Source: a virus (taxonomy: Duplodnaviria > Heunggongvirae > Uroviricota > Caudoviricetes). Taken from it: a stretch of DNA of 7,239 nucleotides. The notes under the pieces are model-generated. The model saw nothing but the letters and a program-made list of their open reading frames with translations. It did no database searches and was not told where the DNA came from. The DNA lies in IMG/VR virus record IMGVR_UViG_2778261535_000001, positions 1-7,239 of that record; one strand, 5' to 3'. Below, piece by piece: positions 1 through 7,239 of the stretch. Position 1 is the stretch's first letter. The number at the start of each line of letters is the position of its first letter. A program made the position numbers and the translations under genes.

Positions 1-828
1 ATTAACGTCCCATGCAGGTCGCTTGCTTGTAACTAGTTCGCCATTAACAGGAATGACTTTTCCTTCGACCAACCATTTCCCGTTAATATAGGTATTCCTG
101 AAAAACGTTCTGGAGGTAAAATAAGTTTTACCCTGCATATCAATAATTCTAGATGAAATAGCAGCCTCAAGTGATTCAAAAGCTAAAGAATCATTTGTAA
201 CACCATCACCTACAGCACCAAAATCTTTAGGGCTAACTGTGTCACGCATCTTATCCTGGAACGTTCTGTATACTGCTCCAGAACCATACTGAATAAACCA
301 ACCAAAACCACCAACAACTCCAGCGATTGCAGCATCGACATAATTACGCATTGAGCGATTATTTACAGCATCCTGCTCAAGTGATGGATCTGCAAGGTTA
401 GAAATTTTGTTTTGCTTTGCATCGTAATATTTTGCAAGCAAAGATGGTTTCATCAATGCGCGTCTGAACCACCCAAAACATTGCTGGATCAGCATCGTCA
501 GGTAGTCAAAGGCATCTTCATGCACTTCGGGGAAAAACTTTCCCTGATTGCGGAGGTCTGTCTCCTGCACTACATCAAGCACACGATCTATCGTAATTAG
601 CCAGCCAACAGCAAGCGGCGACGGAAGAACCACAGAACCGCCACTATAAGTGCCCGCCCCTGTTACCGTATAACCGGTATCCAGAACCAATTCTGTTACG
701 TTCCCGTTCAAGTCAGACACCTGAACAACCAGGTCGGATTTTTTGAAAATACGGAAGGTATACGGAAATGATGTCGTAACGCCGTTACCGGTGTATTCGT
801 TGTGGTCAACTTCGGTTGAGACCGTCAT
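1..828 (-). CDS. Tailspike / tail fibre protein, N-terminal 276 codons (gene continues beyond window start)
   Basis: Not in the ORF track because no stop lies in the window; hand translation of the minus strand from ATG 828..826 is open for 276 codons down to position 1. RBS GGAGA sits 6-7 nt upstream (plus 836..840). N-terminus MTVSTEVDHNEYTGNGVTTSFPYTFRIFKKSDLVVQV fits the pattern of the T7 gp17-type particle-binding domain (Y-x2-[DN]G-x4-F-x3-F ... VV). A DAVNNRSMRNYVD motif follows, then SPKDFGAVGDGVTNDSLAFESLEAAI, typical of the first rung of a pectate-lyase-like beta-helix receptor-binding or depolymerase domain. Confidence 0.75.
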   Translation of the reverse strand, partial: MTVSTEVDHNEYTGNGVTTSFPYTFRIFKKSDLVVQVSDLNGNVTELVLDTGYTVTGAGTYSGGSVVLPSPLAVGWLITIDRVLDVVQETDLRNQGKFFPEVHEDAFDYLTMLIQQCFGWFRRALMKPSLLAKYYDAKQNKISNLADPSLEQDAVNNRSMRNYVDAAIAGVVGGFGWFIQYGSGAVYRTFQDKMRDTVSPKDFGAVGDGVTNDSLAFESLEAAISSRIIDMQGKTYFTSRTFFRNTYINGKWLVEGKVIPVNGELVTSKRPAWDVN

Positions 829-931
829 GTTAAATCTCCAGATAGTCGCAGCACCCGTTGCGCCGCATATCTGGTTATTCTATTACCTGAAAAACCACAT
901 ATGGATAGAAAGACTGTAAATACGAATAGAT

Positions 932-948
932 ATTACCTTTCAGGTAAT
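932..948. promoter_or_regulatory. Operator-like 17-bp palindrome, site A (ATTACCTTTCAGGTAAT)
   Basis: Perfect 7-bp inverted arms ATTACCT / AGGTAAT around a 3-bp centre. Lies in the divergent intergenic region between the tailspike start (828) and the small + gene (1024). Near-identical copies at 2051..2067 and 2144..2160; an isolated left half-site ATTACCT at 882..888. Confidence 0.5.
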
Positions 949-985
949 TTGCAAAACGTGCTGGATAGCAAACAAATTATTTGAT

Positions 986-1003
986 ACTGTATAAATATAC
1001 AGT
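986..1003. promoter_or_regulatory. LexA (SOS) box overlapping a candidate promoter
   Basis: ACTGTATAAATATACAGT contains a perfect CTGT-N8-ACAG core (987..1002) with an AT-rich centre, matching the enterobacterial LexA consensus TACTGTATATATATACAGTA. A -35-like TTGATA (981..986) abuts it and a weak -10 TATTGC (1004..1009) follows at 17-nt spacing. The box is about 20 nt upstream of the start codon at 1024. Confidence 0.7.
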
Positions 1004-1023
1004 TATTGCATGGAGAAGATAAG

Positions 1024-1281
1024 ATGCAGCAGTATCACTATCCACTGGAAGACGGATTTACCGAAAGGATTCACACGCCGGGAGGCGTCAGATCACTGGT
1101 GGAGGGATCGCACTTGATGAAATTACTCCGGGATCTCGATAAGGATGGATTTAATGTCGATGGCCCACTTGCCGAACTGACTGCACTGATTAACTACGTC
1201 ACCAGCTCACAGATGTCTATGCAGGATCTGCAAACACATCTCGACTATTGTGCCGAACAACTACGAAAACAAACCACATAA
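1024..1281 (+). CDS. Small antirepressor-like protein (85 aa), stand-alone paralogue of the Ant C-terminal domain
   Basis: ATG at 1024 with RBS GGAG (1012..1015) 8 nt upstream; the ORF track's TTG at 1006 is judged a less likely start. Stop TAA at 1279..1281. Residues ~17-80 (HTPGGVRSLVEGSHLMKLLRDLDKDGFNVDGPLAELTALINYV...DLQTHLDY) align with the C-terminus of the 2429..3139 protein (HSPSGVLGLTESSLLMNLLNQLQEDGHDVSGAAAELTTMFCYI...DIQTHAEY) at roughly 40-45% identity by eye. Confidence 0.65.
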   Translation: MQQYHYPLEDGFTERIHTPGGVRSLVEGSHLMKLLRDLDKDGFNVDGPLAELTALINYVTSSQMSMQDLQTHLDYCAEQLRKQTT

Positions 1282-1303
1282 AGAAAAGGCCGCAAGAGCG
1301 GCC
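1275..1303. terminator. Bidirectional intrinsic terminator between convergent genes
   Basis: Perfect hairpin GGCCGC-AAGA-GCGGCC at 1288..1303. On the minus strand it is followed by TTTTCTTTATG (complement of 1275..1287); on the plus strand by the moderately T-rich TATCGTTTCGCTTTG. It sits between the + stop (1281) and the - stop (1303..1305). Confidence 0.55.
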
Positions 1304-2031
1304 TATCGTTTCGCTTTGTGCTCGTCCCAGCACGTTTTGCACCATGCCATTAAGCCATCCGCATTTTGATTATTAGGGTAAAAACTGGTTCGTTTTCTGC
1401 GGACATTACAAATTGGGCACCACTTCATATGGCGTGTATTCTTTGGGCCATCGAGACACCTTGCACACCACTTAGTCAATCCATCTGGATTTTTTGACGA
1501 TTTCCTGAATTTTTCATATGGAAGGTTTATTCTGCATCGCAAACACTGCTTGCGGGCACTTGAAACTTCGTTAGCTGATTCTTCTTTTGACGGCGATACA
1601 GAAGGTATTCTTGCTGGCTCTGATACTGCCTGAGGTGCTTTTTTAGGTGACTGAGACGATATGTCATCACCAGGGAATCTGTCATGATATGCCGGACGCG
1701 TTGACACTCCAGGTGGAAGCTCTGCTGTAAATGGCTTTGGCTGAATCAGCGCCCTCTCTTTTGCTGACTCCTGCTGTTTATAATATGTCTGGATTACCGA
1801 TATATCATAAGCAGGATGTACAGAAATATCCGGCGCATTACCTCCAGTTTTTTGAAACTGAGTGGAGGTGTGGTCTATCACCTGTGTACGATTAATCGTT
1901 ATTTCTCCATCTTCGGTCTTTATCGTTTTGCGATGATTAACGACTGTGCGATCAGAGACCTTAGTCCTGTTCTGGTTGATAACGTAAATAATCACCGTAA
2001 CAACACCAACAACTATCCAGAAAACTTCCAT
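1303..2031 (-). CDS. Membrane-anchored protein with two tandem C4 zinc ribbons (242 aa), function unknown
   Basis: ATG at 2031 with RBS GAGGAAAA upstream; stop TAG at 1303..1305. One N-terminal hydrophobic helix (FWIVVGVVTVIIYVI) followed by a cluster of basic residues, which by the positive-inside rule puts the C-terminus in the cytoplasm. A long Ser/Pro/Lys/Glu-rich low-complexity linker follows. The basic C-terminal ~80 aa carry two repeats of C-x2-C-x22-C-x2-C, each with DGLxxWCxxC (CLRC...NPDGLTKWCARC and CPIC...NADGLMAWCKTC). The gene looks AT-richer than its neighbours by eye. Confidence 0.7.
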   Translation of the reverse strand: MEVFWIVVGVVTVIIYVINQNRTKVSDRTVVNHRKTIKTEDGEITINRTQVIDHTSTQFQKTGGNAPDISVHPAYDISVIQTYYKQQESAKERALIQPKPFTAELPPGVSTRPAYHDRFPGDDISSQSPKKAPQAVSEPARIPSVSPSKEESANEVSSARKQCLRCRINLPYEKFRKSSKNPDGLTKWCARCLDGPKNTRHMKWCPICNVRRKRTSFYPNNQNADGLMAWCKTCWDEHKAKR

Positions 2032-2050
2032 TGCTTTTCCTCACAATAAC

Positions 2051-2067
2051 ATTACCTTAAAGGTAAT
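2051..2067. promoter_or_regulatory. Operator-like 17-bp palindrome, site B (ATTACCTTAAAGGTAAT)
   Basis: Same ATTACCT / AGGTAAT arms as site A. Lies 20-36 nt upstream of the start codon of the minus-strand zinc-ribbon gene. A degenerate fourth site with only the right arm (CTTTCAGGTGAT) is at about 2074..2085. Confidence 0.5.
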
Positions 2068-2143
2068 ATCTTGCTTTCAGGTGATCAAGCGTTAAACGCA
2101 ATCAACCAAATACGGTTGATTTTAATATTTATCCGCGTTTATC

Positions 2144-2160
2144 ATTACCTTTGAGGTAAA
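2144..2160. promoter_or_regulatory. Operator-like 17-bp palindrome, site C (ATTACCTTTGAGGTAAA)
   Basis: Arms ATTACCT / AGGTAAA (one mismatch). Directly abuts the -35-like TTTACA at 2161..2166 of the candidate plus-strand promoter for the ant leader. Centre-to-centre distance from site B is 93 bp. Confidence 0.5.
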
Positions 2161-2189
2161 TTTACATCGCACTCCTCTTGTGCCATAGT
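2161..2189 (+). promoter_or_regulatory. Candidate sigma70 promoter for the leader/ant transcript
   Basis: TTTACA (2161..2166), 17-nt spacer, CATAGT (2184..2189). Identified by eye only; the -10 is weak. Confidence 0.3.
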
Positions 2190-2193
2190 AATC

Positions 2194-2272
2194 GGGCACT
2201 GGCAAAATCCAGTGCCGGGATTGGCGTCCCGAGTTACTAAGTGGCGCATACCACGCCAGACGTGGTTTTTTT
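2194..2272 (+). ncRNA. Candidate structured leader or small RNA upstream of the antirepressor gene
   Basis: Perfect 8-bp hairpin GGCACTGG-CAAAAT-CCAGTGCC (2195..2216), a second small hairpin GGGA-TTGGCG-TCCC (2217..2230), then an intrinsic terminator. No credible ORF. The region also contains an approximately 19-bp imperfect direct copy (2236..2254) of the ant translation-initiation region (2409..2427). Confidence 0.3.
2250..2272 (+). terminator. Intrinsic terminator/attenuator within the ant leader
   Basis: GC-rich hairpin ACCACG-CCAGA-CGTGGT followed by a run of seven T (2266..2272). It is strand-specific: on the minus strand the U-tract would precede the stem. It lies 156 nt upstream of the ant start codon. 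Confidence 0.5.
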
Positions 2273-2428
2273 ATGCGTTAAGCACAGCTATATCCGAATT
2301 ATGGTGGGCTGGGCAGGGGTCCGAAAGGACGCCGGTACCACTTAGGCCGGTACGCCAACCTTGTCCAGTTCACCACCAGTAATTGGCGTTGCGGTGGTGA
2401 TTAAAATCACTAAGTGGAGATAACCACC

Positions 2429-3139
2429 ATGGCTAATGCTCAAACTGCCATCTTCAAATTTGAATCTGTTAACCCTATCCGTTCCATCATTATCGATGGC
2501 CAACCATGGTTTGTAGCCCAAGACGTTTGTAGTGCGCTGCGTATCCAAAACGTCACCCAAGCACTTGAAAAACTGGATGATGATGAAAGGTCTATGTTCA
2601 ACATAGGGCATGAACATCGTGCAATTTTTGACAGCCGAGTAAAAGAGATCAACATCATCTCCGAGTCAGGCCTCTACACACTGATCCTCCGCTGCCGCGA
2701 TGCAGTAACACCAGGCACTATCCCCTACCGCTTTCGTAAATGGGTTACAGGTGAGGTTCTTCCTCAGATCCGCCGCACCGGAAGTTACATTAAAAACTCG
2801 CTCCCGCAGGAAGAACGCATAAAGATGGTTGCCGACCAGGTAGCCAACGCCACAGCATCAGCAGTGATGCAGGCAATGAAGGTAGAGAACAAAACCTACA
2901 GCGCCCCACTGAAGCCCGGCTACCGCAGCCTGATTCATTCGCCGTCTGGTGTTCTCGGCCTGACGGAGAGCTCACTGCTGATGAATCTGCTGAACCAGTT
3001 ACAGGAAGACGGGCACGACGTATCGGGCGCGGCGGCGGAACTGACCACCATGTTCTGCTACATCGTCGGTGTGAGTAAATGCCTGCGTGATATCCAGACC
3101 CACGCGGAATACATCAACGACAAGGCAGGGTTCTTCTGA
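2429..3139 (+). CDS. BRO-N domain antirepressor (Ant-like), 236 aa
   Basis: ATG at 2429 with RBS GGAG (2416..2419) 9 nt upstream; the ORF track's GTG at 2414 is judged less likely. Stop TGA at 3137..3139. N-terminal half carries the hallmark BRO-N motifs (FKFESVNPIRSIIIDGQPWFVAQDVCSAL, ALEKLDDDE, ISESGLYTLIL, FRKWVTGEVLPQIRRTGSY). The C-terminal ~80 aa are homologous to the 85-aa protein at 1024..1281. Confidence 0.88.
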   Translation: MANAQTAIFKFESVNPIRSIIIDGQPWFVAQDVCSALRIQNVTQALEKLDDDERSMFNIGHEHRAIFDSRVKEINIISESGLYTLILRCRDAVTPGTIPYRFRKWVTGEVLPQIRRTGSYIKNSLPQEERIKMVADQVANATASAVMQAMKVENKTYSAPLKPGYRSLIHSPSGVLGLTESSLLMNLLNQLQEDGHDVSGAAAELTTMFCYIVGVSKCLRDIQTHAEYINDKAGFF

Positions 3140-3156
3140 CGGGCGGCGGTGGCATT

Positions 3157-3185
3157 CGTTAAAAACAAGGCCGCGAAAGCGGCCT
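3157..3185 (-). terminator. Intrinsic terminator for the minus-strand virion-gene transcript (also caps the + ant transcript)
   Basis: Perfect hairpin AGGCCGC-GAAA-GCGGCCT (3168..3185) with a GNRA-type loop. On the minus strand it is followed by TTGTTTTTAAC. Its stem is almost identical to the hairpin at 1288..1303. Confidence 0.55.
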
Positions 3186-3204
3186 GTGACATGTCACGCT
3201 CACG

Positions 3205-3345
3205 TTATGACAAGCCTATGTACCCTGCTACACCAGATAATATCAAAATAACTGCAACAGCAAATTCGCCATCGTCAATGATACATTTACGGTTCATAAC
3301 GCCAAGTGCAACAAGCGCAAACACAACAAGAATAAAAGCAATCAT
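3205..3345 (-). CDS. Small hydrophobic protein, 46 aa, two predicted transmembrane helices (not in ORF track)
   Basis: Minus-strand ATG at 3345 preceded by AAGGAT, which overlaps the TAA stop (3355..3357) of the upstream 824-aa gene; stop TAA at 3205..3207. Hand translation MIAFILVVFALVALGVMNRKCIIDDGEFAVAVILILSGVAGYIGLS shows two hydrophobic segments split by a charged turn (NRKCIIDDGE). The terminator follows immediately. Confidence 0.4.
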   Translation of the reverse strand: MIAFILVVFALVALGVMNRKCIIDDGEFAVAVILILSGVAGYIGLS

Positions 3346-3354
3346 TTCTCATCC

Positions 3355-5829
3355 TTATTGCGGAGTGACATCCTGTGGTCGCCACCAGTATGTCTGGTTA
3401 AACTCTTTCTTCGAACGTTGCTCCATTTTACGCAAATAACCTGGTGAAAAATACTCCTGCATCTGGTTAAAGATCATGTGATCGAGAGCCGCCTTTAAGT
3501 ACCAGAGATTCGCACCTGGCATCAGACCTTTCCCCAGCTTAACCAGATCACCACCAGTCTGCTCATTCTTCCCTTCCACAGCATTTAACGGTATGCCCTG
3601 AGCAATCTTCACTACGTCATCAACCAGACCAGCTACCGGGCCAAGCATCGACGCCAGCGCGCCGCTTCCGTACCTAGTGTGATCTGACAATAAAAAGTCA
3701 CCGTAAAGGCCAAGACCACCACCTTTCAGTAGAGCACCAAGCCAAAATTTAGCAGCATCTTCTCCTGTCATCTCGCGAGGATTACGACCAGACGCAAGGT
3801 CGTTAAGTTGCTGCGACAAAGCGCCAAGAATGGTCGTACTGGCAATAAACGTCGCAATATATGCCGCACGCCCACCAGCAGACGGCATACCCATAGCGCG
3901 TGACCAGTGACGCATAACCACCGAGATAGGGAACGATTTAAACAGGAAAACACTTCTCGTTAATTCACCTTTCCATGTTCCACGCTGAATACCAGAACCG
4001 GTTATCAGTTGCTCACGTGCTCCCGGTGTAATAACAGCCATATCAACTTCTTCAGTTACGGCACCGAGCAGTTTACGCATTGCCTCAAATTTCACGCGTT
4101 CAGGCTCACCAAGATGTTTAACTGCTGAATCAGGGATACGCATAATGCTTTCCGGTGTCAGCATCGTATTATTACCGTTCCCCCAGTCCTCCTGTTGCGC
4201 CAGCTTCCATACGCTCCAGTCTGTGTCAGTAATCCCTTTGCTTTTCAGGATACGAAAATCAGAGTCATCGAGGCTACGAAGGTCTGGTGTCCGTGACACT
4301 ACTTCTCCCAGGCTTCCCATCATGGTTACGCCATAGGCGCGCTTGTGCGCATCTGACCATGCTGTAAGCCCACTGGCACGCATTACCGCCGTTGCCGCCC
4401 AACGAGACACTGACGGCCCCATATTATCCATCGCCCAGCGGTTAACGCTGCCAAGTAGAGATTCCATCGCCAGACCAGCGCGGCGCGCCCGCGCAAGTTC
4501 TGTACGGTTCGTTGGGTCCATAGCTTCAAGCTGGTTGCGGAATAACTGGTTCATTGGAAGGTTGGTCACCTTCGCAGACAGATACATGGTTCCAAGATCA
4601 GAGAACGATGATAGCAACGCGGATCCGAGTCTGCTGGCAACCAGCCAGTTGCGGATATTGTCAGACCATCGCGCGATGTGCGGATTCGCTACAGGCTGTG
4701 TCTTTCCGGAAATAAAGTTGTACAGATTCTCTGTGTTGTTCGCCAGCCGCTCGACTTTACCGGTTTTACTCGGGTTAGCTGTTGCCGTTTCTGCCTTCAC
4801 CTGATCAAGAAGAGAGCGGAAAACATGATCTGGGTTTGGGCCATATGTTTCCACCAGTGCAATATCTTTACTGATACCTTCCAGGTGACCGACCATGATT
4901 TCCCATAGAGAGCGATCGCCATAAAGTTGCTGATATTGCAGATAGGAATCTGCATCTTTGAAATGTATCTGTCGTGATGCATTACCACGGTTAGCACGTG
5001 CGCCGGAAATTCGCATTCCGGTATCAGTAAGCTTATTCAGCCCACCAGTAGCGATCGTGTTATAAGCCTCTCCAAGAAATGCAGACAACTCGGCATCGTT
5101 CATCAGTTGTCCATCGGCTCGGATATAATATTTGCGATCCAGCTTACCTATAACATCGCTAACCCACTTATCCTTTGATACCGCCCCAACCTTTTCCATA
5201 GAATGATGTTGAGGGATCCCCCAGTTTTCGAGATAGCCAATGTCCCCACCAGCATCATTAAACCGGCGGCGCAGCAGCTCTGTAACTTCTCTCCACGCCT
5301 TAGCACCTTTTCTTGCTTTAGCATTGCCAGTATTTTGCCCCCGCATTTCATATACCAGGTCACGTACGCCCGCTTCATCTTCAAACAGACCAAAAAAGCG
5401 AGGATCAACTGCTTCGAATGCCTCCTGCAATTGACTCAATGCATAATCACGAGTGGCTTTTGTTCTGGACTCAACAGAGAGGAAATTCGATTTACCGTCT
5501 GCATTAAAAGCAATAGTACGGTTAAGAGCGCCAAGTTTCCCATCAGCCCCTTGATAGCTATTGATAAATTTATCCAATCTCTGACGTGCGGCTATAGTGA
5601 GGGCCACACGACGTTTCTTTAATGCCGCTTCTCGCTGTAATTCTTCAGATGCCAATTGTGCTGCACGATACAACCGCTCTGATTCGGAAAGTTGTCGCCA
5701 CGACATCGGGTCATCACGAGCAATGGAGCGCATATTTCGATAAATGCGGTCTTCAATGTTCTGTATTTCTCGCGCCGTTAACGTGCGCTGCGCCGCCTGC
5801 TGGACCGCTTGTATACATTCCTGTCTCAT
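3355..5829 (-). CDS. Large virion-associated protein, 824 aa (putative internal virion / DNA-ejection protein)
   Basis: Long ORF with ATG at 5829 and RBS GAGAGG 9 nt upstream; it starts 5 nt after the stop of the upstream gene, so the two are translationally coupled. It lies just upstream of the tailspike region, where podoviruses such as P22 and T7 encode ejection or core proteins. Gly-rich C-terminal segment. No motif I can assign with certainty; the function is by position and size only. Confidence 0.45.
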   Translation of the reverse strand: MRQECIQAVQQAAQRTLTAREIQNIEDRIYRNMRSIARDDPMSWRQLSESERLYRAAQLASEELQREAALKKRRVALTIAARQRLDKFINSYQGADGKLGALNRTIAFNADGKSNFLSVESRTKATRDYALSQLQEAFEAVDPRFFGLFEDEAGVRDLVYEMRGQNTGNAKARKGAKAWREVTELLRRRFNDAGGDIGYLENWGIPQHHSMEKVGAVSKDKWVSDVIGKLDRKYYIRADGQLMNDAELSAFLGEAYNTIATGGLNKLTDTGMRISGARANRGNASRQIHFKDADSYLQYQQLYGDRSLWEIMVGHLEGISKDIALVETYGPNPDHVFRSLLDQVKAETATANPSKTGKVERLANNTENLYNFISGKTQPVANPHIARWSDNIRNWLVASRLGSALLSSFSDLGTMYLSAKVTNLPMNQLFRNQLEAMDPTNRTELARARRAGLAMESLLGSVNRWAMDNMGPSVSRWAATAVMRASGLTAWSDAHKRAYGVTMMGSLGEVVSRTPDLRSLDDSDFRILKSKGITDTDWSVWKLAQQEDWGNGNNTMLTPESIMRIPDSAVKHLGEPERVKFEAMRKLLGAVTEEVDMAVITPGAREQLITGSGIQRGTWKGELTRSVFLFKSFPISVVMRHWSRAMGMPSAGGRAAYIATFIASTTILGALSQQLNDLASGRNPREMTGEDAAKFWLGALLKGGGLGLYGDFLLSDHTRYGSGALASMLGPVAGLVDDVVKIAQGIPLNAVEGKNEQTGGDLVKLGKGLMPGANLWYLKAALDHMIFNQMQEYFSPGYLRKMEQRSKKEFNQTYWWRPQDVTPQ

Positions 5830-5834
5830 TTAAT

Positions 5835-7239
5835 TTAACCTCTCAAGAAACACGCCACAGCGACATCAAACAGGCTGGAATCCTGTATTGCCTGCTCACT
5901 TTCCTTGTTCGCTTCATCCAGTACTTCACGAGCTCTGCGCGATTGTGAATTACCATCATCATCCAGCACGGTGATTATCATGTCAGGTGATTCAAGCAGC
6001 GAGTCTTCAGCTATGCGCAGATCAATATCTCCTGCCTGATCTGCCATCATTTTTTGTCCTGCCTGTTGCAATATTTTATCAGGCTCAAAAGGAGCTACTT
6101 CGTCTGGCGTCCTGACCTCTGCTGTTTTATAGAATGAAACAGCCTGAGCATTAAGTTCACTTTCTACCTGCTGTCGCCGTGCCAGTTCTGCTCGAGCTTC
6201 AAAAAACTGACCGCCAGGCTCATGCGGTGCCAACGCGTTACGGGAAAATTCTAGGCGTTCTTGTGCCTGCCGGATTAGTTGGTCAATATCGCGAAGTCTG
6301 ACCTGTTTATCTGATCGAGCACGAGATAAAGCCTTACCGCTACCGGTTGGCTCTTCTGCAAGAATTTGTGCGCGCTGTTCAGTGAGATTTTCAATAATTC
6401 GTTGGCTATTAGCGATTTCAGACTGGTAAACCTGTCTATCGCCACGCGGCAAAAGCTGCGCGGCCTGTTCTTCAAGCAACCGATTTTCTATAGCGCGCGC
6501 CGTTACTCCATCATCTACAGATGACAGAGCCTCATTAACTGCCTGAGACAGCAGACTCTTGCGCCCAGGAATTTCACTGAAAGATGCAGACTCAACAATG
6601 CTGGCAACGTCTACAGGTCTCCCCTGGCTAACATCAGACATGGCTTTTCGCAGAGCCTGAATGTGCGAATTACGCGAAAGCACGTTGATCGGCACGCCGG
6701 GAGCAATATCAATTTCAGCATGATGAGCGGCATTCGCCGCCAGTGCAGCATCGATATCAACTGGTGAAAAATTTGGTGCGCTTGTAGACTCGCCGCGAGA
6801 GTTAATAAATCTGCCGACACCACCAAACGCCACCCCAAGAACAGCATCAATAGCAATTGCCTGTCGATCCAACACATCATACTGGTTAGCCATTTCGCTA
6901 TAGCCACCATCACGAAGCGTTTTTGCAGTAAGCCCACGCTGTGCCATACCGAACGCAATATTTGTACCTGCGGCATAGGCAATATCTGGCGTTGCACGTA
7001 CTGCTGTTGCTGCGGCGCGTCGCACTGAACTTTCACCCGTCCGCGCAAGCTGAGCCGCCACACCTTCCGCCAGCGCACCACCAGCACGTAACCCGAAGCT
7101 CATAGGGATCAGTGTTCCGGCACCAGCAGTAATACCCTGCACTAATCCCGCTTCCTGCGCCGTCCTGAAATCAACACCCTGTGCTGTCAGCCGTTCAAAC
7201 TCAGAAAAACCCTGTAGCGAAGTTACCGCCGCAGCACCT
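5835..7239 (-). CDS. Large virion-associated protein, C-terminal 467 aa (5' end beyond window; putative internal virion / ejection protein)
   Basis: The frame stays open from the window edge (7238) to the TAA at 5835..5837; the track's start at 7142 is only an internal GVG-context GTG codon. Ala/Gly-rich N-proximal part, then a charged region predicted to be coiled-coil (QLIRQAQERLEFSRN...ARAELARRQQVESELNAQ). Co-oriented and coupled with the 824-aa gene. Confidence 0.45.
   Translation of the reverse strand, partial: GAAAVTSLQGFSEFERLTAQGVDFRTAQEAGLVQGITAGAGTLIPMSFGLRAGGALAEGVAAQLARTGESSVRRAAATAVRATPDIAYAAGTNIAFGMAQRGLTAKTLRDGGYSEMANQYDVLDRQAIAIDAVLGVAFGGVGRFINSRGESTSAPNFSPVDIDAALAANAAHHAEIDIAPGVPINVLSRNSHIQALRKAMSDVSQGRPVDVASIVESASFSEIPGRKSLLSQAVNEALSSVDDGVTARAIENRLLEEQAAQLLPRGDRQVYQSEIANSQRIIENLTEQRAQILAEEPTGSGKALSRARSDKQVRLRDIDQLIRQAQERLEFSRNALAPHEPGGQFFEARAELARRQQVESELNAQAVSFYKTAEVRTPDEVAPFEPDKILQQAGQKMMADQAGDIDLRIAEDSLLESPDMIITVLDDDGNSQSRRAREVLDEANKESEQAIQDSSLFDVAVACFLRG

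What the first reader, a model, noticed from the sequence alone, without database searches (positions are those of the whole stretch)
829..3354. Immunity-I-like accessory island inserted between the ejection-protein genes and the tailspike gene, with its own terminators on both sides
In P22 the immI region (mnt, arc, ant), with sieA beside it, sits between gene 16 and the tailspike gene 9. Here the equivalent position holds a different solution: a BRO-N Ant transcribed against the virion genes, no ribbon-helix-helix repressor genes, a LexA-gated mini-antirepressor, and a membrane zinc-ribbon protein. The terminator at 3157..3185 would stop the minus-strand virion transcript before the island, so the tailspike gene needs its own promoter in 829..1005, where operator site A lies. 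This means tailspike expression may be under control of the same palindrome-binding repressor, which is unusual for a structural gene.
Basis: partly seen in the sequence, partly recalled or inferred. Interest (0 to 1): 0.55.

Follow-up and report, generated by a model that had tools for sequence, protein, structure and literature searches.

The report
Antirepressor region of an epsilon15-like prophage
This is the standard induction-control region of an epsilon15/phiV10-like prophage, holding a known SOS-triggered antirepressor and a second antirepressor held in check by small antisense RNAs; it is real and well organised but largely ordinary for this phage group.

Summary
The sequence features are real, but the "unusual inserted island" reading is only partly right.

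**Source.** The window comes from a Uetakevirus (epsilon15/phiV10-like) prophage.

**Core versus cargo.**
- Positions 829..1304 are conserved genus core, not an insert. They hold a late-type tailspike promoter motif, a repressor operator, a LexA box and an 85-aa antirepressor.
- The antirepressor is 88% identical over 84 aligned residues to the characterised SPC32H Ant (PDB 5D50).
- The variable cargo is 1305..3167. It lies between two copies of a terminator hairpin that is single in epsilon15, SPN1S and 66FD.

The Bro-N antirepressor is preceded by an isrK-like RNA and a C4 antisense RNA, both above Rfam gathering scores.
- Two exposed C4 segments pair with two target sets. The second set covers the Ant ribosome-binding site.
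- The pairings co-vary three ways across six related loci.
- This makes it a P1/P7- or Gifsy-1-type module, not a P22-type one.

**Palindromes.** They are copies of a dispersed operator, ATTACC-N5-GGTAAT. The epsilon15 record already annotates it as a repressor site, including the copy before the tailspike gene.

**Tailspike promoter.** A separate promoter is supported. The motif CATAT-N2-GGTT-N6-GTA occurs exactly three times per genome, before the portal, tailspike and lysis blocks. The design is genus-wide, so the tailspike is not a special case.

**Verdict.** A new member of a known kind, of low to moderate interest.

The parts
1..828 (-). N-terminal part of the tailspike gene (ATG at 828..826); it runs off the window
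   Evidence: PHROG tail and tailspike families, E down to 1e-148. Matches the phiV10 p25 and epsilon15 gp20 N-termini.
877..903 (-). Late-class promoter motif CATATGTGGTTTTTCAGGTA (903..884), followed by the -10-like TAGAAT (882..877)
   Evidence: Conserved in 10 genomes. The motif CATAT-N2-GGTT-N6-GTA occurs exactly 3 times per genome in SPC32H, epsilon15 and phiV10, before the portal, tailspike and lysis blocks; 0 hits in 300 shuffles.
932..948 (.). Operator A, ATTACCTTTCAGGTAAT (repressor Rep operator)
   Evidence: The homologous epsilon15 site 19895..19911 is annotated 'protein_bind repressor'. Invariant arms in 10 genomes.
959..968 (.). Invariant block TGCTGGATAG between operator A and the LexA box; function unknown
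   Evidence: Conserved in the alignment. It lies on the LexA-box side of operator A. The IHF site that the epsilon15 record annotates at 19910..19932 is on the opposite (tailspike) side of the operator, so that annotation does not cover this block.
985..1004 (+). LexA box overlapping the promoter of the small antirepressor gene
   Evidence: 2 mismatches, 0 expected. Conserved in all 10 relatives. The SPC32N variant carries CTGT>CTTT here.
1024..1281 (+). Small antirepressor Ant (85 aa), orthologue of SPC32H Ant, epsilon15 gp19 and phiV10 p24
   Evidence: PDB 5D50_E, E=1.3e-47. phrog_450. Present in 35 phage records, essentially all epsilon15-like; one, TL-2011b, has a different backbone.
1287..1304 (-). 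Hairpin T1, AGGCCGCTCTTGCGGCCT plus a U-tract on the minus strand; left copy of the duplicated terminator
1303..2031 (-). 242-aa membrane-anchored double zinc-ribbon protein (phrog_6762); cargo gene of unknown function
   Evidence: No Pfam, NCBIfam, PADLOC or fold match.
2051..2067 (.). Operator B, ATTACCTTAAAGGTAAT, 20 nt upstream of the 242-aa ORF start
2144..2160 (.). Operator C, ATTACCTTTGAGGTAAA, abutting the -35 of the isrK/ant promoter
   Evidence: Conserved upstream of isrK in all 6 loci that carry the module.
2161..2189 (+). Promoter-like site TTTACA-17-(TG)CATAGT; its predicted start coincides with isrK position 1 (2196)
2196..2272 (+). isrK-like RNA / c4-a1b1 leader. It contains target a1 (2221..2227), target b1 (2237..2244) and an intrinsic terminator (2250..2272).
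   Evidence: Rfam RF01394, 67.2 bits (GA 50). RF03163, 44.3 bits (GA 46.7). Complementarity.
2297..2380 (+). C4-type antisense RNA, with exposed b' CCACUUAG (2338..2345) and a' ACGCCAA (2352..2358)
   Evidence: Rfam RF01695, 66 bits (GA 45). Fold and complementarity. Three-way covariation.
2383..2419 (+). Targets a2 (2383..2389) and b2 (2410..2417); b2 overlaps the Ant Shine-Dalgarno GGAG (2416..2419)
2429..3139 (+). Bro-N::Ant fusion antirepressor (236 aa). It has an N-terminal Bro-N domain and a C-terminal domain homologous to the small Ant.
   Evidence: PF02498, E=1e-19. Residues 155-231 match 5D50_E at E=1.7e-13. phrog_130 and phrog_450.
3158..3185 (-). Hairpin T2, AGGCCGCTTTCGCGGCCT plus UUGUUUUU; terminator of the late virion operon and right copy of the duplicated hairpin
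   Evidence: Annotated as a terminator in phiV10 and epsilon15.
3205..3345 (-). 46-aa membrane protein, last gene of the virion operon (phiV10 p21 homologue)
   Evidence: phrog_7892, E=5e-33.
3355..5829 (-). 824-aa virion structural protein (phiV10 p20 homologue)
   Evidence: phrog_684.

Best explanation
The region is the antirepressor and induction-control region of a Uetakevirus (epsilon15/phiV10-like) prophage. It has a conserved core plus a cargo cassette.

**Core (829..1304)**
- A divergent control region holds a late-class tailspike promoter, one operator of the phage repressor Rep, and a LexA box.
- The LexA box gates an 85-aa antirepressor of the SPC32H Ant type.
- On DNA damage LexA is cleaved and Ant is made. 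Ant binds Rep and breaks up its DNA-binding tetramer.

**Cargo (1305..3167)**
- It sits between two copies of the late-operon terminator hairpin.
- It carries a Rep-operator-linked 242-aa membrane zinc-ribbon gene.
- It also carries a P1/Gifsy-type module: a Rep-operator-flanked promoter, then an isrK-like leader RNA (a1/b1 decoy sites plus a leaky terminator), then a C4 antisense RNA, then a2/b2 sites masking the ribosome-binding site, then a Bro-N::Ant fusion.
- C4 pairs with a2/b2 and blocks Ant translation. The isrK-like RNA carries the same sites and can titrate C4.
- The second antirepressor is therefore made only after Rep is lifted and the RNA balance tips. It could act as a second-stage lock on induction or as a weapon against related prophages.

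**Tailspike**
- The gene is cut off from the virion operon by minus-strand terminators.
- It is transcribed from its own late promoter, one of three such promoters per genome, each just downstream of a Rep operator.

**Shown versus inferred**
- Shown here: homologies, motif statistics, conservation and covariation.
- Taken from literature: the LexA-Ant-Rep mechanism, C4 repression of Ant synthesis in P1, and IsrK activation of antirepressor translation in Gifsy-1.
- Inferred: the relay order, Rep action at operators A to C, and promoter activity.
For: **Identity of the window**
- 97-98% DNA identity to Uetakeviruses HEMP4, phiv142-3 and phiV10, with matching gene order.

**Small Ant**
- It matches PDB 5D50_E 'Anti-repressor protein' at E=1.3e-47.
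- The gene is annotated ant in SPC32H.
- The LexA box is significant and conserved in 10 genomes.
- SPC32H and SPC32N differ at only 2 nt, one of them in this box.
- Literature for the mechanism: LexA self-cleavage leads to an antirepressor that inhibits the repressor by protein-protein interaction, citing Kim and Ryu 2013 for SPC32H (PMC7380047). The Ant tetramer breaks the Rep tetramer (PMC9638917). Ant binds Rep's tetramerisation domain (PMC9986798).

**Operators**
- 3 in the window against 0.01 expected, and 9 in phiV10 against 0.04 expected.
- They flank the rep gene and precede each transcription unit.
- The epsilon15 record annotates them as repressor sites.

**RNA module**
- isrK and C4 score above Rfam gathering thresholds.
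- Both are present in every relative that has a Bro-N Ant and absent from those without one.
- The exposed C4 segments CCACUUAG and ACGCCAA are complementary to two target sets. The second set overlaps the Ant Shine-Dalgarno sequence.
- a1/a'/a2 and b1/b'/b2 change together, giving 4 specificity combinations in 6 loci.
- Operator C and the promoter are conserved in those 6 loci.

**Ant fusion**
- Bro-N domain plus a C-terminal domain homologous to the small Ant.
- Overexpression of a Bro-N antirepressor cut the prophage titre about 1000-fold in the related phage ZX5, that is, it favoured the lytic cycle (PMC9782041).

**Cargo borders**
- Hairpin duplication with ancestral flanks.

**Tailspike promoter**
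- Conserved motif, found exactly three times per genome on the late strand, with 0 hits in shuffles.
- Two minus-strand terminators lie upstream of it.
Against: - No transcript, binding or expression data exist for this sequence.
- The rep gene lies outside the window, so the Rep-operator pairing rests on relatives and on annotation.
- Operators A and the ones before the other late units sit about 28-41 nt upstream of the late motif, roughly -60 to -90. That is an unusual position for simple occlusion, so they may work through looping or IHF, or even as activator sites.
- The late motif is not a canonical sigma-70 promoter. The consensus scan found no minus-strand promoter in 829..1005.
- No icd/orf45-type coupled ORF precedes Ant, so neither the P1 nor the Gifsy-1 mechanism can be transferred in detail.
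- The phiV10 copy of the Bro-N Ant is frameshifted, so the second antirepressor is dispensable at least there.
- The role of the 242-aa protein is unknown.
Confidence: 0.75

Rival explanations
1. The tailspike gene has no promoter of its own. It is expressed by antiterminated read-through of the late virion transcript across both hairpins and the antisense strand of the ant genes, much as P22 late transcription reads through immI into gene 9. On this view the conserved motif at 877..903 serves another purpose.
For: - The virion genes, tailspike and lysis genes all lie on one strand.
- A small zinc-finger-like 'transcriptional regulator' gene, followed by a terminator, sits just before the terminase genes. 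Such a regulator could be an antiterminator.
- No canonical sigma-70 promoter was found on the minus strand of 829..1005.
Against: - Two good minus-strand intrinsic terminators lie upstream.
- The same 20-nt motif occurs only before the portal, tailspike and lysis blocks in three genomes, with 0 expected by chance.
- It is conserved in 10 genomes from four host genera.
- Read-through would collide with the + strand ant and isrK transcription.
Confidence: 0.2
2. The palindromes in front of the late units, including operator A, are positive control sites. Derepression alone would not be sufficient, and the sites would recruit an activator of late promoters, such as a Cro-like protein or late regulator with the same specificity, rather than mediate repression by Rep.
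For: In SPC32H, epsilon15 and the window the full palindrome lies 28-41 nt upstream of the late motif. That is around -60 to -90, a classic activator position.
Against: - The same palindrome flanks the rep gene at the OL and OR positions.
- It abuts the -35 of the isrK promoter.
- The epsilon15 annotators call it a repressor site.
- Rep is a looping-type tetramer that binds palindromic sites (PMC9638917; PMC9986798).
Confidence: 0.15
3. The Bro-N::Ant protein does not act in the phage's own induction. It is either a trans-acting weapon that induces or disarms heteroimmune resident prophages on infection (as P22 or P1 Ant can), or a Bro-N DNA-binding host-takeover protein.
For: - The module is cargo. 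It is absent from epsilon15, SPN1S, 66FD and BUCT711 and frameshifted in phiV10.
- It travels with other morons such as the YafO toxin, DUF4760 and DUF2335.
- C4 specificity classes differ between phages reported to have identical Rep (PMC9782041). That is the P1/P7 heteroimmunity pattern.
Against: - Its C-terminal domain is a paralogue of the Rep-binding small Ant of the same phage.
- Its promoter carries the phage's own operator.
- The two roles are not mutually exclusive.
Confidence: 0.25
4. One reading: a P22-type immI equivalent controlled only by proteins (LexA and a palindrome-binding repressor), inserted as one island at 829..3354.
For: The position between the virion/injection genes and the tailspike is the same as in P22. 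TL-2011b has a true P22-type arc-ant-sar module next door.
Against: - No RHH genes and no sar RNA in the window.
- isrK and C4 RNAs are present, with covarying targets.
- 829..1304 is conserved core, not an insert.
Confidence: 0.05

Closest known systems
SPC32H Rep / Ant / LexA antirepression system (Kim and Ryu 2013, J Virol 87:11775; Kim et al. 2016, PNAS 113:E2480; PDB 5D50, 5D4Z)
   Same: - The 85-aa protein is 88% identical over 84 aligned residues to SPC32H Ant.
- It has the same LexA box, the same operator and the same position between the small membrane-protein gene and the tailspike gene.
   Different: - The window carries a second antirepressor, a Bro-N fusion of the same Ant domain, under RNA control. 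It also carries a 242-aa gene inserted behind the small ant. SPC32H has neither.
- I could not read the primary papers. The mechanism is taken from citing papers.
P1/P7 immI operon (c4 antisense RNA - icd - ant, promoter under C1 operator Op51)
   Same: - C4-family RNA above the Rfam threshold.
- Two target sets (a1b1 upstream, a2b2 downstream), with the downstream set masking a ribosome-binding site.
- A repressor operator at the promoter.
- Specificity variants as in P1 versus P7.
- A main repressor with many dispersed operators (PMC8546580).
- The a/b target nomenclature and the details of P1/P7 heteroimmunity come from my own knowledge of Citron and Schuster 1990/1992.
   Different: - There is no icd-like coupled ORF, so b2 masks the Ant Shine-Dalgarno sequence directly.
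- The operator is a palindrome for an HTH tetramer, not the asymmetric C1 site.
- The Ant is a Bro-N::SPC32H-Ant fusion; homology to P1 Ant1/2 was not tested.
- The host phage is an integrated podovirus, not a plasmid myovirus.
Gifsy-1 isrK - orf45/STnc1160 - anrP locus (Hershko-Shalev et al. 2016, PMC4825925)
   Same: - An isrK-family RNA with its own leaky terminator is followed by an ~80-nt processed RNA region complementary to it, then an antirepressor gene.
- Like the window, Gifsy prophages also use LexA-controlled antirepressors (PMC7380047).
   Different: - In Gifsy-1, translation goes through orf45 by coupling. Here no ORF ends at the Ant start.
- The genomic position differs: next to antQ in a lambdoid prophage, versus next to the tailspike in a podovirus.
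P22 immI (mnt, arc, ant, sar RNA) between gene 16 and gene 9
   Same: - Same position relative to the injection/virion genes and the tailspike.
- An antirepressor under antisense-RNA control.
- TL-2011b carries both module types side by side.
   Different: - No Mnt or Arc RHH repressors and no sar RNA.
- Ant is transcribed against the virion genes.
- The antisense RNA is of the C4 family.
Published Uetakevirus genomes (epsilon15 NC_004775, phiV10 NC_007804, phiv142-3, Tyrion) and TL-2011b
   Same: - Same gene order.
- The epsilon15 record already annotates the repressor site and an IHF site before the tailspike, and the terminator after gp18.
- phiV10 annotates the Bro-N protein and the isrK terminator.
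- TL-2011b and about 100 E. coli prophages have the 242-aa gene and both hairpins.
   Different: - This copy has an intact Bro-N::Ant (frameshifted in phiV10).
- It has no moron after Ant, and a particular C4 specificity (a = GCG, b = AGUGG).
- None of the annotated records fetched marks the isrK or C4 RNAs.

Membership tests
SPC32H-type LexA-controlled antirepressor (small Ant) | Sequence homology to SPC32H Ant over its full length | tested here: met
   PDB 5D50_E, E=1.3e-47, residues 2-85 against 3-86. tblastn gives 88% identity to the SPC32H ant gene.
SPC32H-type LexA-controlled antirepressor (small Ant) | LexA box at the promoter | tested here: met
   985..1004, 2 mismatches to consensus, 0 expected. 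Conserved in 10 genomes. The SPC32N variant is mutated in this box.
SPC32H-type LexA-controlled antirepressor (small Ant) | Cognate Rep repressor (double-HTH tetramer) encoded by the same phage | tested here: inconclusive
   The rep gene is outside the window. The closest relatives carry it: phiV10 p40 has HTH_3, and SPC32H has rep.
SPC32H-type LexA-controlled antirepressor (small Ant) | Ant binds Rep and releases it from DNA | not testable with these tools
   Known only from literature on SPC32H.
P1/P7-type immI (c4-ant) | C4-family antisense RNA upstream of ant on the same strand | tested here: met
   RF01695, 66 bits against gathering 45, full-length match at 2297..2380. Also found in 5 relatives.
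P1/P7-type immI (c4-ant) | Two target sets (a1b1 upstream, a2b2 downstream) complementary to exposed C4 segments | tested here: met
   UUGGCGU and CUAAGUGG are each present twice and pair with ACGCCAA and CCACUUAG. Three-way covariation in 6 loci. RF03163 scores 44.3 bits, just under its gathering score of 46.7.
P1/P7-type immI (c4-ant) | Downstream target overlaps the ribosome-binding site of the first ORF of the ant operon | tested here: met
   b2 at 2410..2417 overlaps GGAG at 2416..2419, with the ATG at 2429. The same register is seen in 5 relatives.
P1/P7-type immI (c4-ant) | Small icd-type ORF translationally coupled to ant | tested here: not met
   No ORF ends at the Ant start. The only upstream ORFs (2212..2382 and 2241..2345) overlap the RNAs and stop at least 47 nt before the ATG.
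P1/P7-type immI (c4-ant) | Promoter controlled by an operator of the main repressor | tested here: inconclusive
   Operator C abuts the -35 and is conserved in 6 loci. Binding and repression were not tested.
P1/P7-type immI (c4-ant) | C4 released from the precursor transcript by processing (RNase P) | not testable with these tools
   No RNA data.
Gifsy-1 isrK-orf45-anrP | isrK-family RNA ending at an intrinsic terminator, followed by an antirepressor gene | tested here: met
   RF01394, 67.2 bits against gathering 50, at 2196..2272. Terminator hairpin plus U7.
Gifsy-1 isrK-orf45-anrP | orf45 whose stop overlaps the antirepressor start (coupling) | tested here: not met
   the defining feature is described.
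P22-type immI | Mnt and Arc ribbon-helix-helix repressors | tested here: not met
   No RHH family in any of 16 ORFs scanned at permissive E-values.
P22-type immI | sar antisense RNA | tested here: not met
   No RF00262 hit in the window at E<=1. The model does detect sar in TL-2011b.
P22-type immI | Location between the injection/virion genes and the tailspike gene | tested here: met
Bro-N domain proteins | Pfam PF02498 above the gathering score | tested here: met
   71.3 bits against 25.6, residues 22-117 of the GTG-start ORF.

The most novel reading that the evidence does not exclude
Uetakevirus prophages may run a two-tier antirepressor relay.
- A LexA-gated mini-Ant fires first.
- It lifts Rep from the isrK promoter. 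The isrK-like decoy RNA then titrates C4 and releases translation of a Bro-N::Ant fusion carrying the same Rep-binding domain. That locks induction in.
- The covarying C4/target classes (at least four combinations among six loci) would create P1/P7-style immI heteroimmunity groups among phages reported to share an identical Rep.
- Rep would directly gate three separate late promoters (portal, tailspike, lysis) through upstream operators, by looping rather than through a cascade.
Probability: 0.35. Interest if true: 0.45.

Novelty: new member of a known kind. Interest (0 to 1): 0.25.

Why it matters
**Annotation**
- The 85-aa 'hypothetical protein' found in hundreds of E. coli prophages is the SPC32H-type SOS-triggered antirepressor.
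- The 'intergenic' 230 bases before the Bro-N gene encode two regulatory RNAs that none of the annotated records I fetched marks.

**Biology**
- The module is common. Island DNA occurs in 552 of 5426 complete E. coli genomes.
- It offers a compact system in which LexA, a looping repressor, a decoy RNA and an antisense RNA converge on one switch.
- The natural C4 specificity variants are ready-made compensatory mutants for testing antisense control and heteroimmunity.
- The thrice-repeated late motif gives a concrete handle on how these podoviruses time tailspike, head and lysis expression.

None of this overturns current understanding.

Tried and rejected
- **242-aa protein.** Pfam gave only a sub-threshold Stc1 zinc-ribbon hit. 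NCBIfam and PADLOC gave nothing. Its 33 homologues are all 'hypothetical'. The AlphaFold model was mediocre (pLDDT 68.5) and Foldseek against the PDB gave nothing below E=1. Function is left unknown; the analogy to SieA is unsupported.
- **Primary papers.** Kim and Ryu 2013, Kim et al. 2016, Kropinski et al. 2007 and Lobocka et al. 2004 are not held. I relied on citing papers and database annotation instead.
- **Canonical sigma-70 promoters.** I tried to fit them by eye for the tailspike, the small ant and the 242-aa gene. No convincing -35/-10 pairs emerged apart from the isrK promoter, so I report the conserved late motif rather than a promoter call.
- **Late regulator (phiV10 p55 / epsilon15 gp49).** No Pfam hit, and the only PHROG label is 'transcriptional regulator'. 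Activator versus antiterminator remains open.
- **GGTAAT half-site as a Rep half-operator.** I considered whether the GGTAAT next to the tailspike -10 is one. It is absent from the lysis-block copy of the motif, so it is more likely part of the promoter motif.
- **Exact source of the window.** Not found. The best E. coli complete-genome match to the island is 96.6% and the best phage match is HEMP4 at 98.2%.

Full report
**What the window is.** Megablast places the 7.2-kb window in the Uetakevirus group of temperate podoviruses. Identities are 98% to HEMP4, 97% to phiv142-3 and phiV10, and about 80% to Enterobacter phage Tyrion and the Salmonella epsilon15/SPN1S group. Gene order matches the annotated records. 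On the minus strand lie two large virion-protein genes, a 46-aa membrane-protein gene and, further on, the tailspike gene. Between them, on the plus strand, lie a small gene (epsilon15 gp19 / phiV10 p24) and a Bro-N gene (phiV10 p23).

**Check of the observation.**
- The tailspike starts at 828 (-).
- An 85-aa ORF lies at 1024..1281 (+), behind a near-consensus LexA box at 985..1004 (2 mismatches, none expected by chance).
- A 242-aa ORF lies at 1303..2031 (-), with an N-terminal transmembrane helix and eight invariant cysteines in two CxxC...CxxC ribbons.
- A Bro-N protein lies at 2429..3139 (+) (PF02498, E=1e-19).
- Three copies of ATTACC-N5-GGTAAT lie at 932, 2051 and 2144 (3 found, 0.01 expected).
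- A GC-rich hairpin lies at 3168..3185 with its U-tract on the minus strand.
- No ribbon-helix-helix domain was found in any of 16 ORFs scanned.

**Core versus cargo.** The borders and the word "inserted" do not hold.
- An alignment of the tailspike / small-gene intergenic region from ten genomes of Escherichia, Salmonella, Enterobacter and Klebsiella phages shows that the LexA box, operator A, a TGCTGGATAG block and a tailspike-proximal block are all conserved.
- The small gene is found in 35 phage records. Essentially all are epsilon15-like; one, TL-2011b, has a different backbone.
- Epsilon15, SPN1S/SPC32H and 66FD have only the small gene between the virion operon and the tailspike. A single hairpin AGGCCGC-N4-GCGGCCT sits between the two convergent stops.
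- In the window this hairpin occurs twice, at 1287..1304 and 3168..3185. The left copy keeps the ancestral left flank (AAACCACATAA...) and the right copy keeps the ancestral right flank (...GTGACATGTCAC).
- The real cargo is therefore 1305..3167, and 829..1304 is genus core.
- The cargo slot is a moron hot spot. Relatives carry a YafO toxin, DUF4760, DUF2335 or small membrane proteins there.
- Island DNA matches 552 of 5426 complete E. coli genomes, 100 of them over at least 80% of its length.

**The small gene.** It is 88% identical over 84 aligned residues to the antirepressor chain of PDB 5D50 from Salmonella phage SPC32H (E=1.3e-47). It is annotated ant in that phage at the same position.
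- According to papers I could read, SPC32H is one of the phages in which LexA self-cleavage leads to synthesis of an antirepressor that inhibits the repressor by protein-protein interaction (PMC7380047, citing Kim and Ryu 2013).
- Rep binds palindromic DNA as a tetramer, and tetrameric Ant splits it into dimers (PMC9638917).
- Ant contacts Rep's p53-like tetramerisation and looping domain (PMC9986798).
- The deposited genomes of SPC32H and its sibling SPC32N differ at only two bases. One changes CTGT to CTTT in this LexA box.
- From memory, SPC32N is the clear-plaque variant with derepressed ant. I could not read the paper to confirm this.
- "LexA-gated mini-antirepressor" is therefore correct, and already characterised.

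**The palindromes.** ATTACC-N5-GGTAAT is a dispersed operator.
- phiV10 has 9 copies with at most one mismatch, against 0.04 expected. SPC32H has 12.
- They flank the rep gene at the positions of OL and OR. They also precede the terminase genes, the portal block, the tailspike, the lysis block and early genes.
- The epsilon15 RefSeq record annotates these sites as 'protein_bind: repressor'. That includes 19895..19911 between gp19 and the tailspike gene, with an IHF site next to it.
- Operator A is therefore a known annotated feature. A repressor site before a structural gene is the rule in this genus, much as P1's C1 has 22 dispersed operators (PMC8546580).
- Binding of Rep to these sites was not tested here, and the rep gene lies outside the window.

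An Rfam scan finds two RNAs upstream of the Bro-N gene on the plus strand.
- An isrK-family RNA lies at 2196..2272 (67 bits, gathering 50). It overlaps a c4-a1b1 match of 44.3 bits (gathering 46.7).
- A C4 antisense RNA lies at 2297..2380 (66 bits, gathering 45).
- A promoter-like site, TTTACA-17-(TG)CATAGT at 2161..2189, predicts a start exactly at isrK position 1 and abuts operator C.
- The isrK-like RNA ends in a hairpin plus U7.
- C4 folds into the family structure, leaving CCACUUAG (hairpin loop) and ACGCCAA (bulge) unpaired.
- UUGGCGU and CUAAGUGG are complementary to them and occur twice. One set is inside the isrK-like RNA (2221, 2237). The other is just downstream of C4 (2383, 2410), where CUAAGUGG overlaps the Ant Shine-Dalgarno GGAG at 2416..2419, ahead of the ATG at 2429.

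**Covariation.** Both RNAs are present in all five relatives that carry a Bro-N Ant and in none of the four that lack it. Across the six loci the elements change together.

| Element | Target sequence | C4 partner | Loci |
|---|---|---|---|
| a | UUGGCGU | ACGCCAA | window, phiV10, E. coli EF5-18-41, TL-2011b |
| a | UUGGUCU | AGACCAA | phiv142-3, Tyrion |
| b | CUAAGUGG | CCACUUAG | window, phiv142-3, E. coli EF5-18-41 |
| b | CUAAAAGG | CCUUUUAG | phiV10, TL-2011b |
| b | CUACAAAGG | CCUUUGUAG | Tyrion |

- In each case both target copies and the C4 partner change together. The one exception is Tyrion's upstream b copy, which matches only partly.
- This gives four combinations in six loci. 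It is strong comparative evidence that the pairings are functional.
- It reproduces the logic of P1/P7 immI, in which c4 RNA represses Ant synthesis (PMC8546580). The a/b nomenclature is from my own knowledge of Citron and Schuster.
- It also matches the Gifsy-1 isrK locus. There the isrK terminator is leaky, an ~80-nt RNA (STnc1160) complementary to IsrK is processed from the read-through transcript, and IsrK supplied in trans activates translation of the downstream antirepressor AnrP 140-fold (PMC4825925).
- Unlike P1 (icd) and Gifsy-1 (orf45), no coupled upstream ORF ends at the Ant start here. The antisense target masks the Ant ribosome-binding site directly.

**The Bro-N protein.** It is a fusion. 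Residues 155-231 are homologous to the small Ant and to 5D50_E (E=1.7e-13; phrog_450 on both).
- The Tyrion copy is 71% identical over its full length. The phiV10 copy is split by a frameshift into p23 and p22.
- In the related phage ZX5, overexpressing the Bro-N antirepressor reduced the prophage titre about 1000-fold, from about 10^9 to 10^6 PFU/mL (PMC9782041).

**Tailspike expression.**
- Both hairpins have good U-tracts only on the minus strand: UUGUUUUU after 3168 and UUUUCUUU after 1287. Minus-strand transcripts from the virion operon and from the 242-aa gene should therefore stop before the tailspike.
- Upstream of the tailspike, all ten genomes keep CATAT-N2-GGTT-N6-GTA followed by TAGAAT, or TACAAT in 66FD. 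In the window this is 903..884 and 882..877 on the minus strand.
- In SPC32H, epsilon15 and phiV10 the motif occurs exactly three times per genome, always on the late strand. The sites are before the portal block, before the tailspike and before the lysis block. It gave zero hits in 300 shuffles.
- In SPC32H each copy lies 28-41 nt downstream of a full operator, and in the window the gap is 28 nt.
- I therefore agree that the tailspike has its own promoter in 829..1005. It is one of a set of three late-class promoters with the same layout, so the tailspike is not singled out.
- The motif is not a canonical sigma-70 promoter, which suggests dependence on an activator. The small zinc-finger-like regulator encoded just before the terminase genes is a candidate, but it has no informative family match.
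- Read-through by antitermination remains a rival explanation at about 0.2.

**Most likely mechanism.**
- *Shown here:* homologies, motif statistics, conservation, RNA complementarity and covariation.
- *From literature on close homologues:* DNA damage leads to LexA cleavage, then Ant synthesis, then disassembly of the Rep tetramer. C4-type RNA blocks ant translation. IsrK counteracts that block.
- *Inferred:* in the lysogen Rep sits on operators A, B and C (B and C are 93 bp apart, suitable for a looping tetramer) and LexA sits on the small-ant promoter. SOS releases the small Ant, and Rep leaves its operators. The isrK promoter then fires and yields the short decoy RNA and, by read-through, C4 plus ant mRNA. 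When decoy exceeds C4, the Bro-N::Ant fusion is translated and removes the remaining Rep, or the Rep of related prophages. Late promoters, including the tailspike's, then become available.
- In phiV10, phiv142-3 and Tyrion there is no hairpin after the small ant. LexA-controlled transcription could therefore run directly into the isrK-C4-ant unit. In the window the left hairpin and the 242-aa gene separate the two.

**The 242-aa gene.** It belongs to a family confined to Enterobacterales prophages, with 33 hits, all hypothetical. In the phage collection it also occurs in TL-2011b, Yersinia YeP4-6 and an Aeromonas phage.
- Operator B lies 20 nt upstream of its start, so it is probably Rep-controlled.
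- No family, defence-system or fold match was found.
- The positive-inside rule suggests the zinc ribbons face the cytoplasm.
- I assign no function.

**Comparison with known systems, and novelty.**
- The core is a member of the SPC32H LexA-Ant-Rep system. Sequence, LexA box and synteny were tested and met. The Rep gene is off-window and binding is untestable.
- The cargo works like P1/P7 immI and Gifsy-1 isrK-anrP. The RNA families, targets and RBS masking were tested and met. The coupled leader ORF was tested and not met, so it is a variant of those modules rather than a strict member.
- It is not a P22-type immI. It has no Mnt or Arc and no sar, although it occupies the same slot. TL-2011b carries both types side by side.
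- All components belong to described families, and the layout exists in published genomes, so this is a new member of a known kind.
- Possibly unreported details are the C4 specificity classes in Uetakeviruses, the thrice-repeated late motif and the hairpin duplication that brackets the cargo.
- Interest is 0.25.

Noticed in passing
window 950..964 and 1327..1341: A perfect 15-nt inverted repeat, TGCAAAACGTGCTGG / CCAGCACGTTTTGCA. One arm abuts operator A in the small-ant promoter region. The other lies inside the 3' end of the 242-aa ORF, where it encodes C-K-T-C-W of the last zinc ribbon. My rough estimate of the chance expectation in 2.6 kb is about 0.003. It may be a recombination scar or coincidence.
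   Followed up: no
L007 (TL-2011b NC_019445) 3333..7800: TL-2011b has a different virion-gene backbone. It carries the whole epsilon15-type module (small Ant, 242-aa gene, isrK, C4, Bro-N Ant, YafO toxin) directly next to a P22-type Arc-like repressor, Ant and sar RNA. Homology to the window ends just past the right hairpin (window 3198). This suggests the module moves together with the tailspike N-terminus.
   Followed up: partly
L014/L013 (SPC32H/SPC32N) positions 19960 and 20147: The two deposited genomes differ at only two bases. One is a G>T change inside the LexA box upstream of ant. The other is a C>T change (Thr>Ile at codon 5) in the tailspike gene.
   Followed up: partly
L001 (phiV10) 3896..4566: phiV10 p23 (Bro-N) and p22 (29 aa) are two frames of one gene. 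It is colinear with the intact 236-aa protein of the window (75% and 98% identity). The cause is a frameshift in phiV10 or a sequencing error.
   Followed up: partly
L003 (phiV10) 86..120: Two adjacent operator-like sites lie inside the annotated start of the phiV10 small terminase gene (41..715). In epsilon15 and SPC32H the single site lies 20 nt upstream of the ATG, after a terminator hairpin. The phiV10 start is probably annotated too far upstream.
   Followed up: no
L002 3646..3662, L006 3884..3900, L007 5505..5521: Further operator copies sit downstream of the Bro-N Ant, in front of the moron genes (YafO-family toxin and small ORFs). Even the accessory genes in this slot appear to be wired to the phage repressor.
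   Followed up: no
L008 (Tyrion) 1814..2065; L009 (SPN1S) 3743..3994: The small Ant gene is mis-annotated in some records. Tyrion gp21 is called as 55 aa (start too late). SPN1S_0021 is called as 127 aa (start too early, running over the LexA box).
   Followed up: no
L005 (epsilon15) 2918..2947 and 19895..19932: In the epsilon15 record an IHF site is annotated beside the repressor operator at both the portal-block and the tailspike late promoters. This fits repression or activation by DNA bending or looping rather than simple occlusion.
   Followed up: no
window 5835..7239 (-): The ORF list gives a 435-aa ORF, but the reading frame stays open to the window's end. It is colinear with the 600-aa phiV10 p19, so the gene simply runs off the window.
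   Followed up: yes
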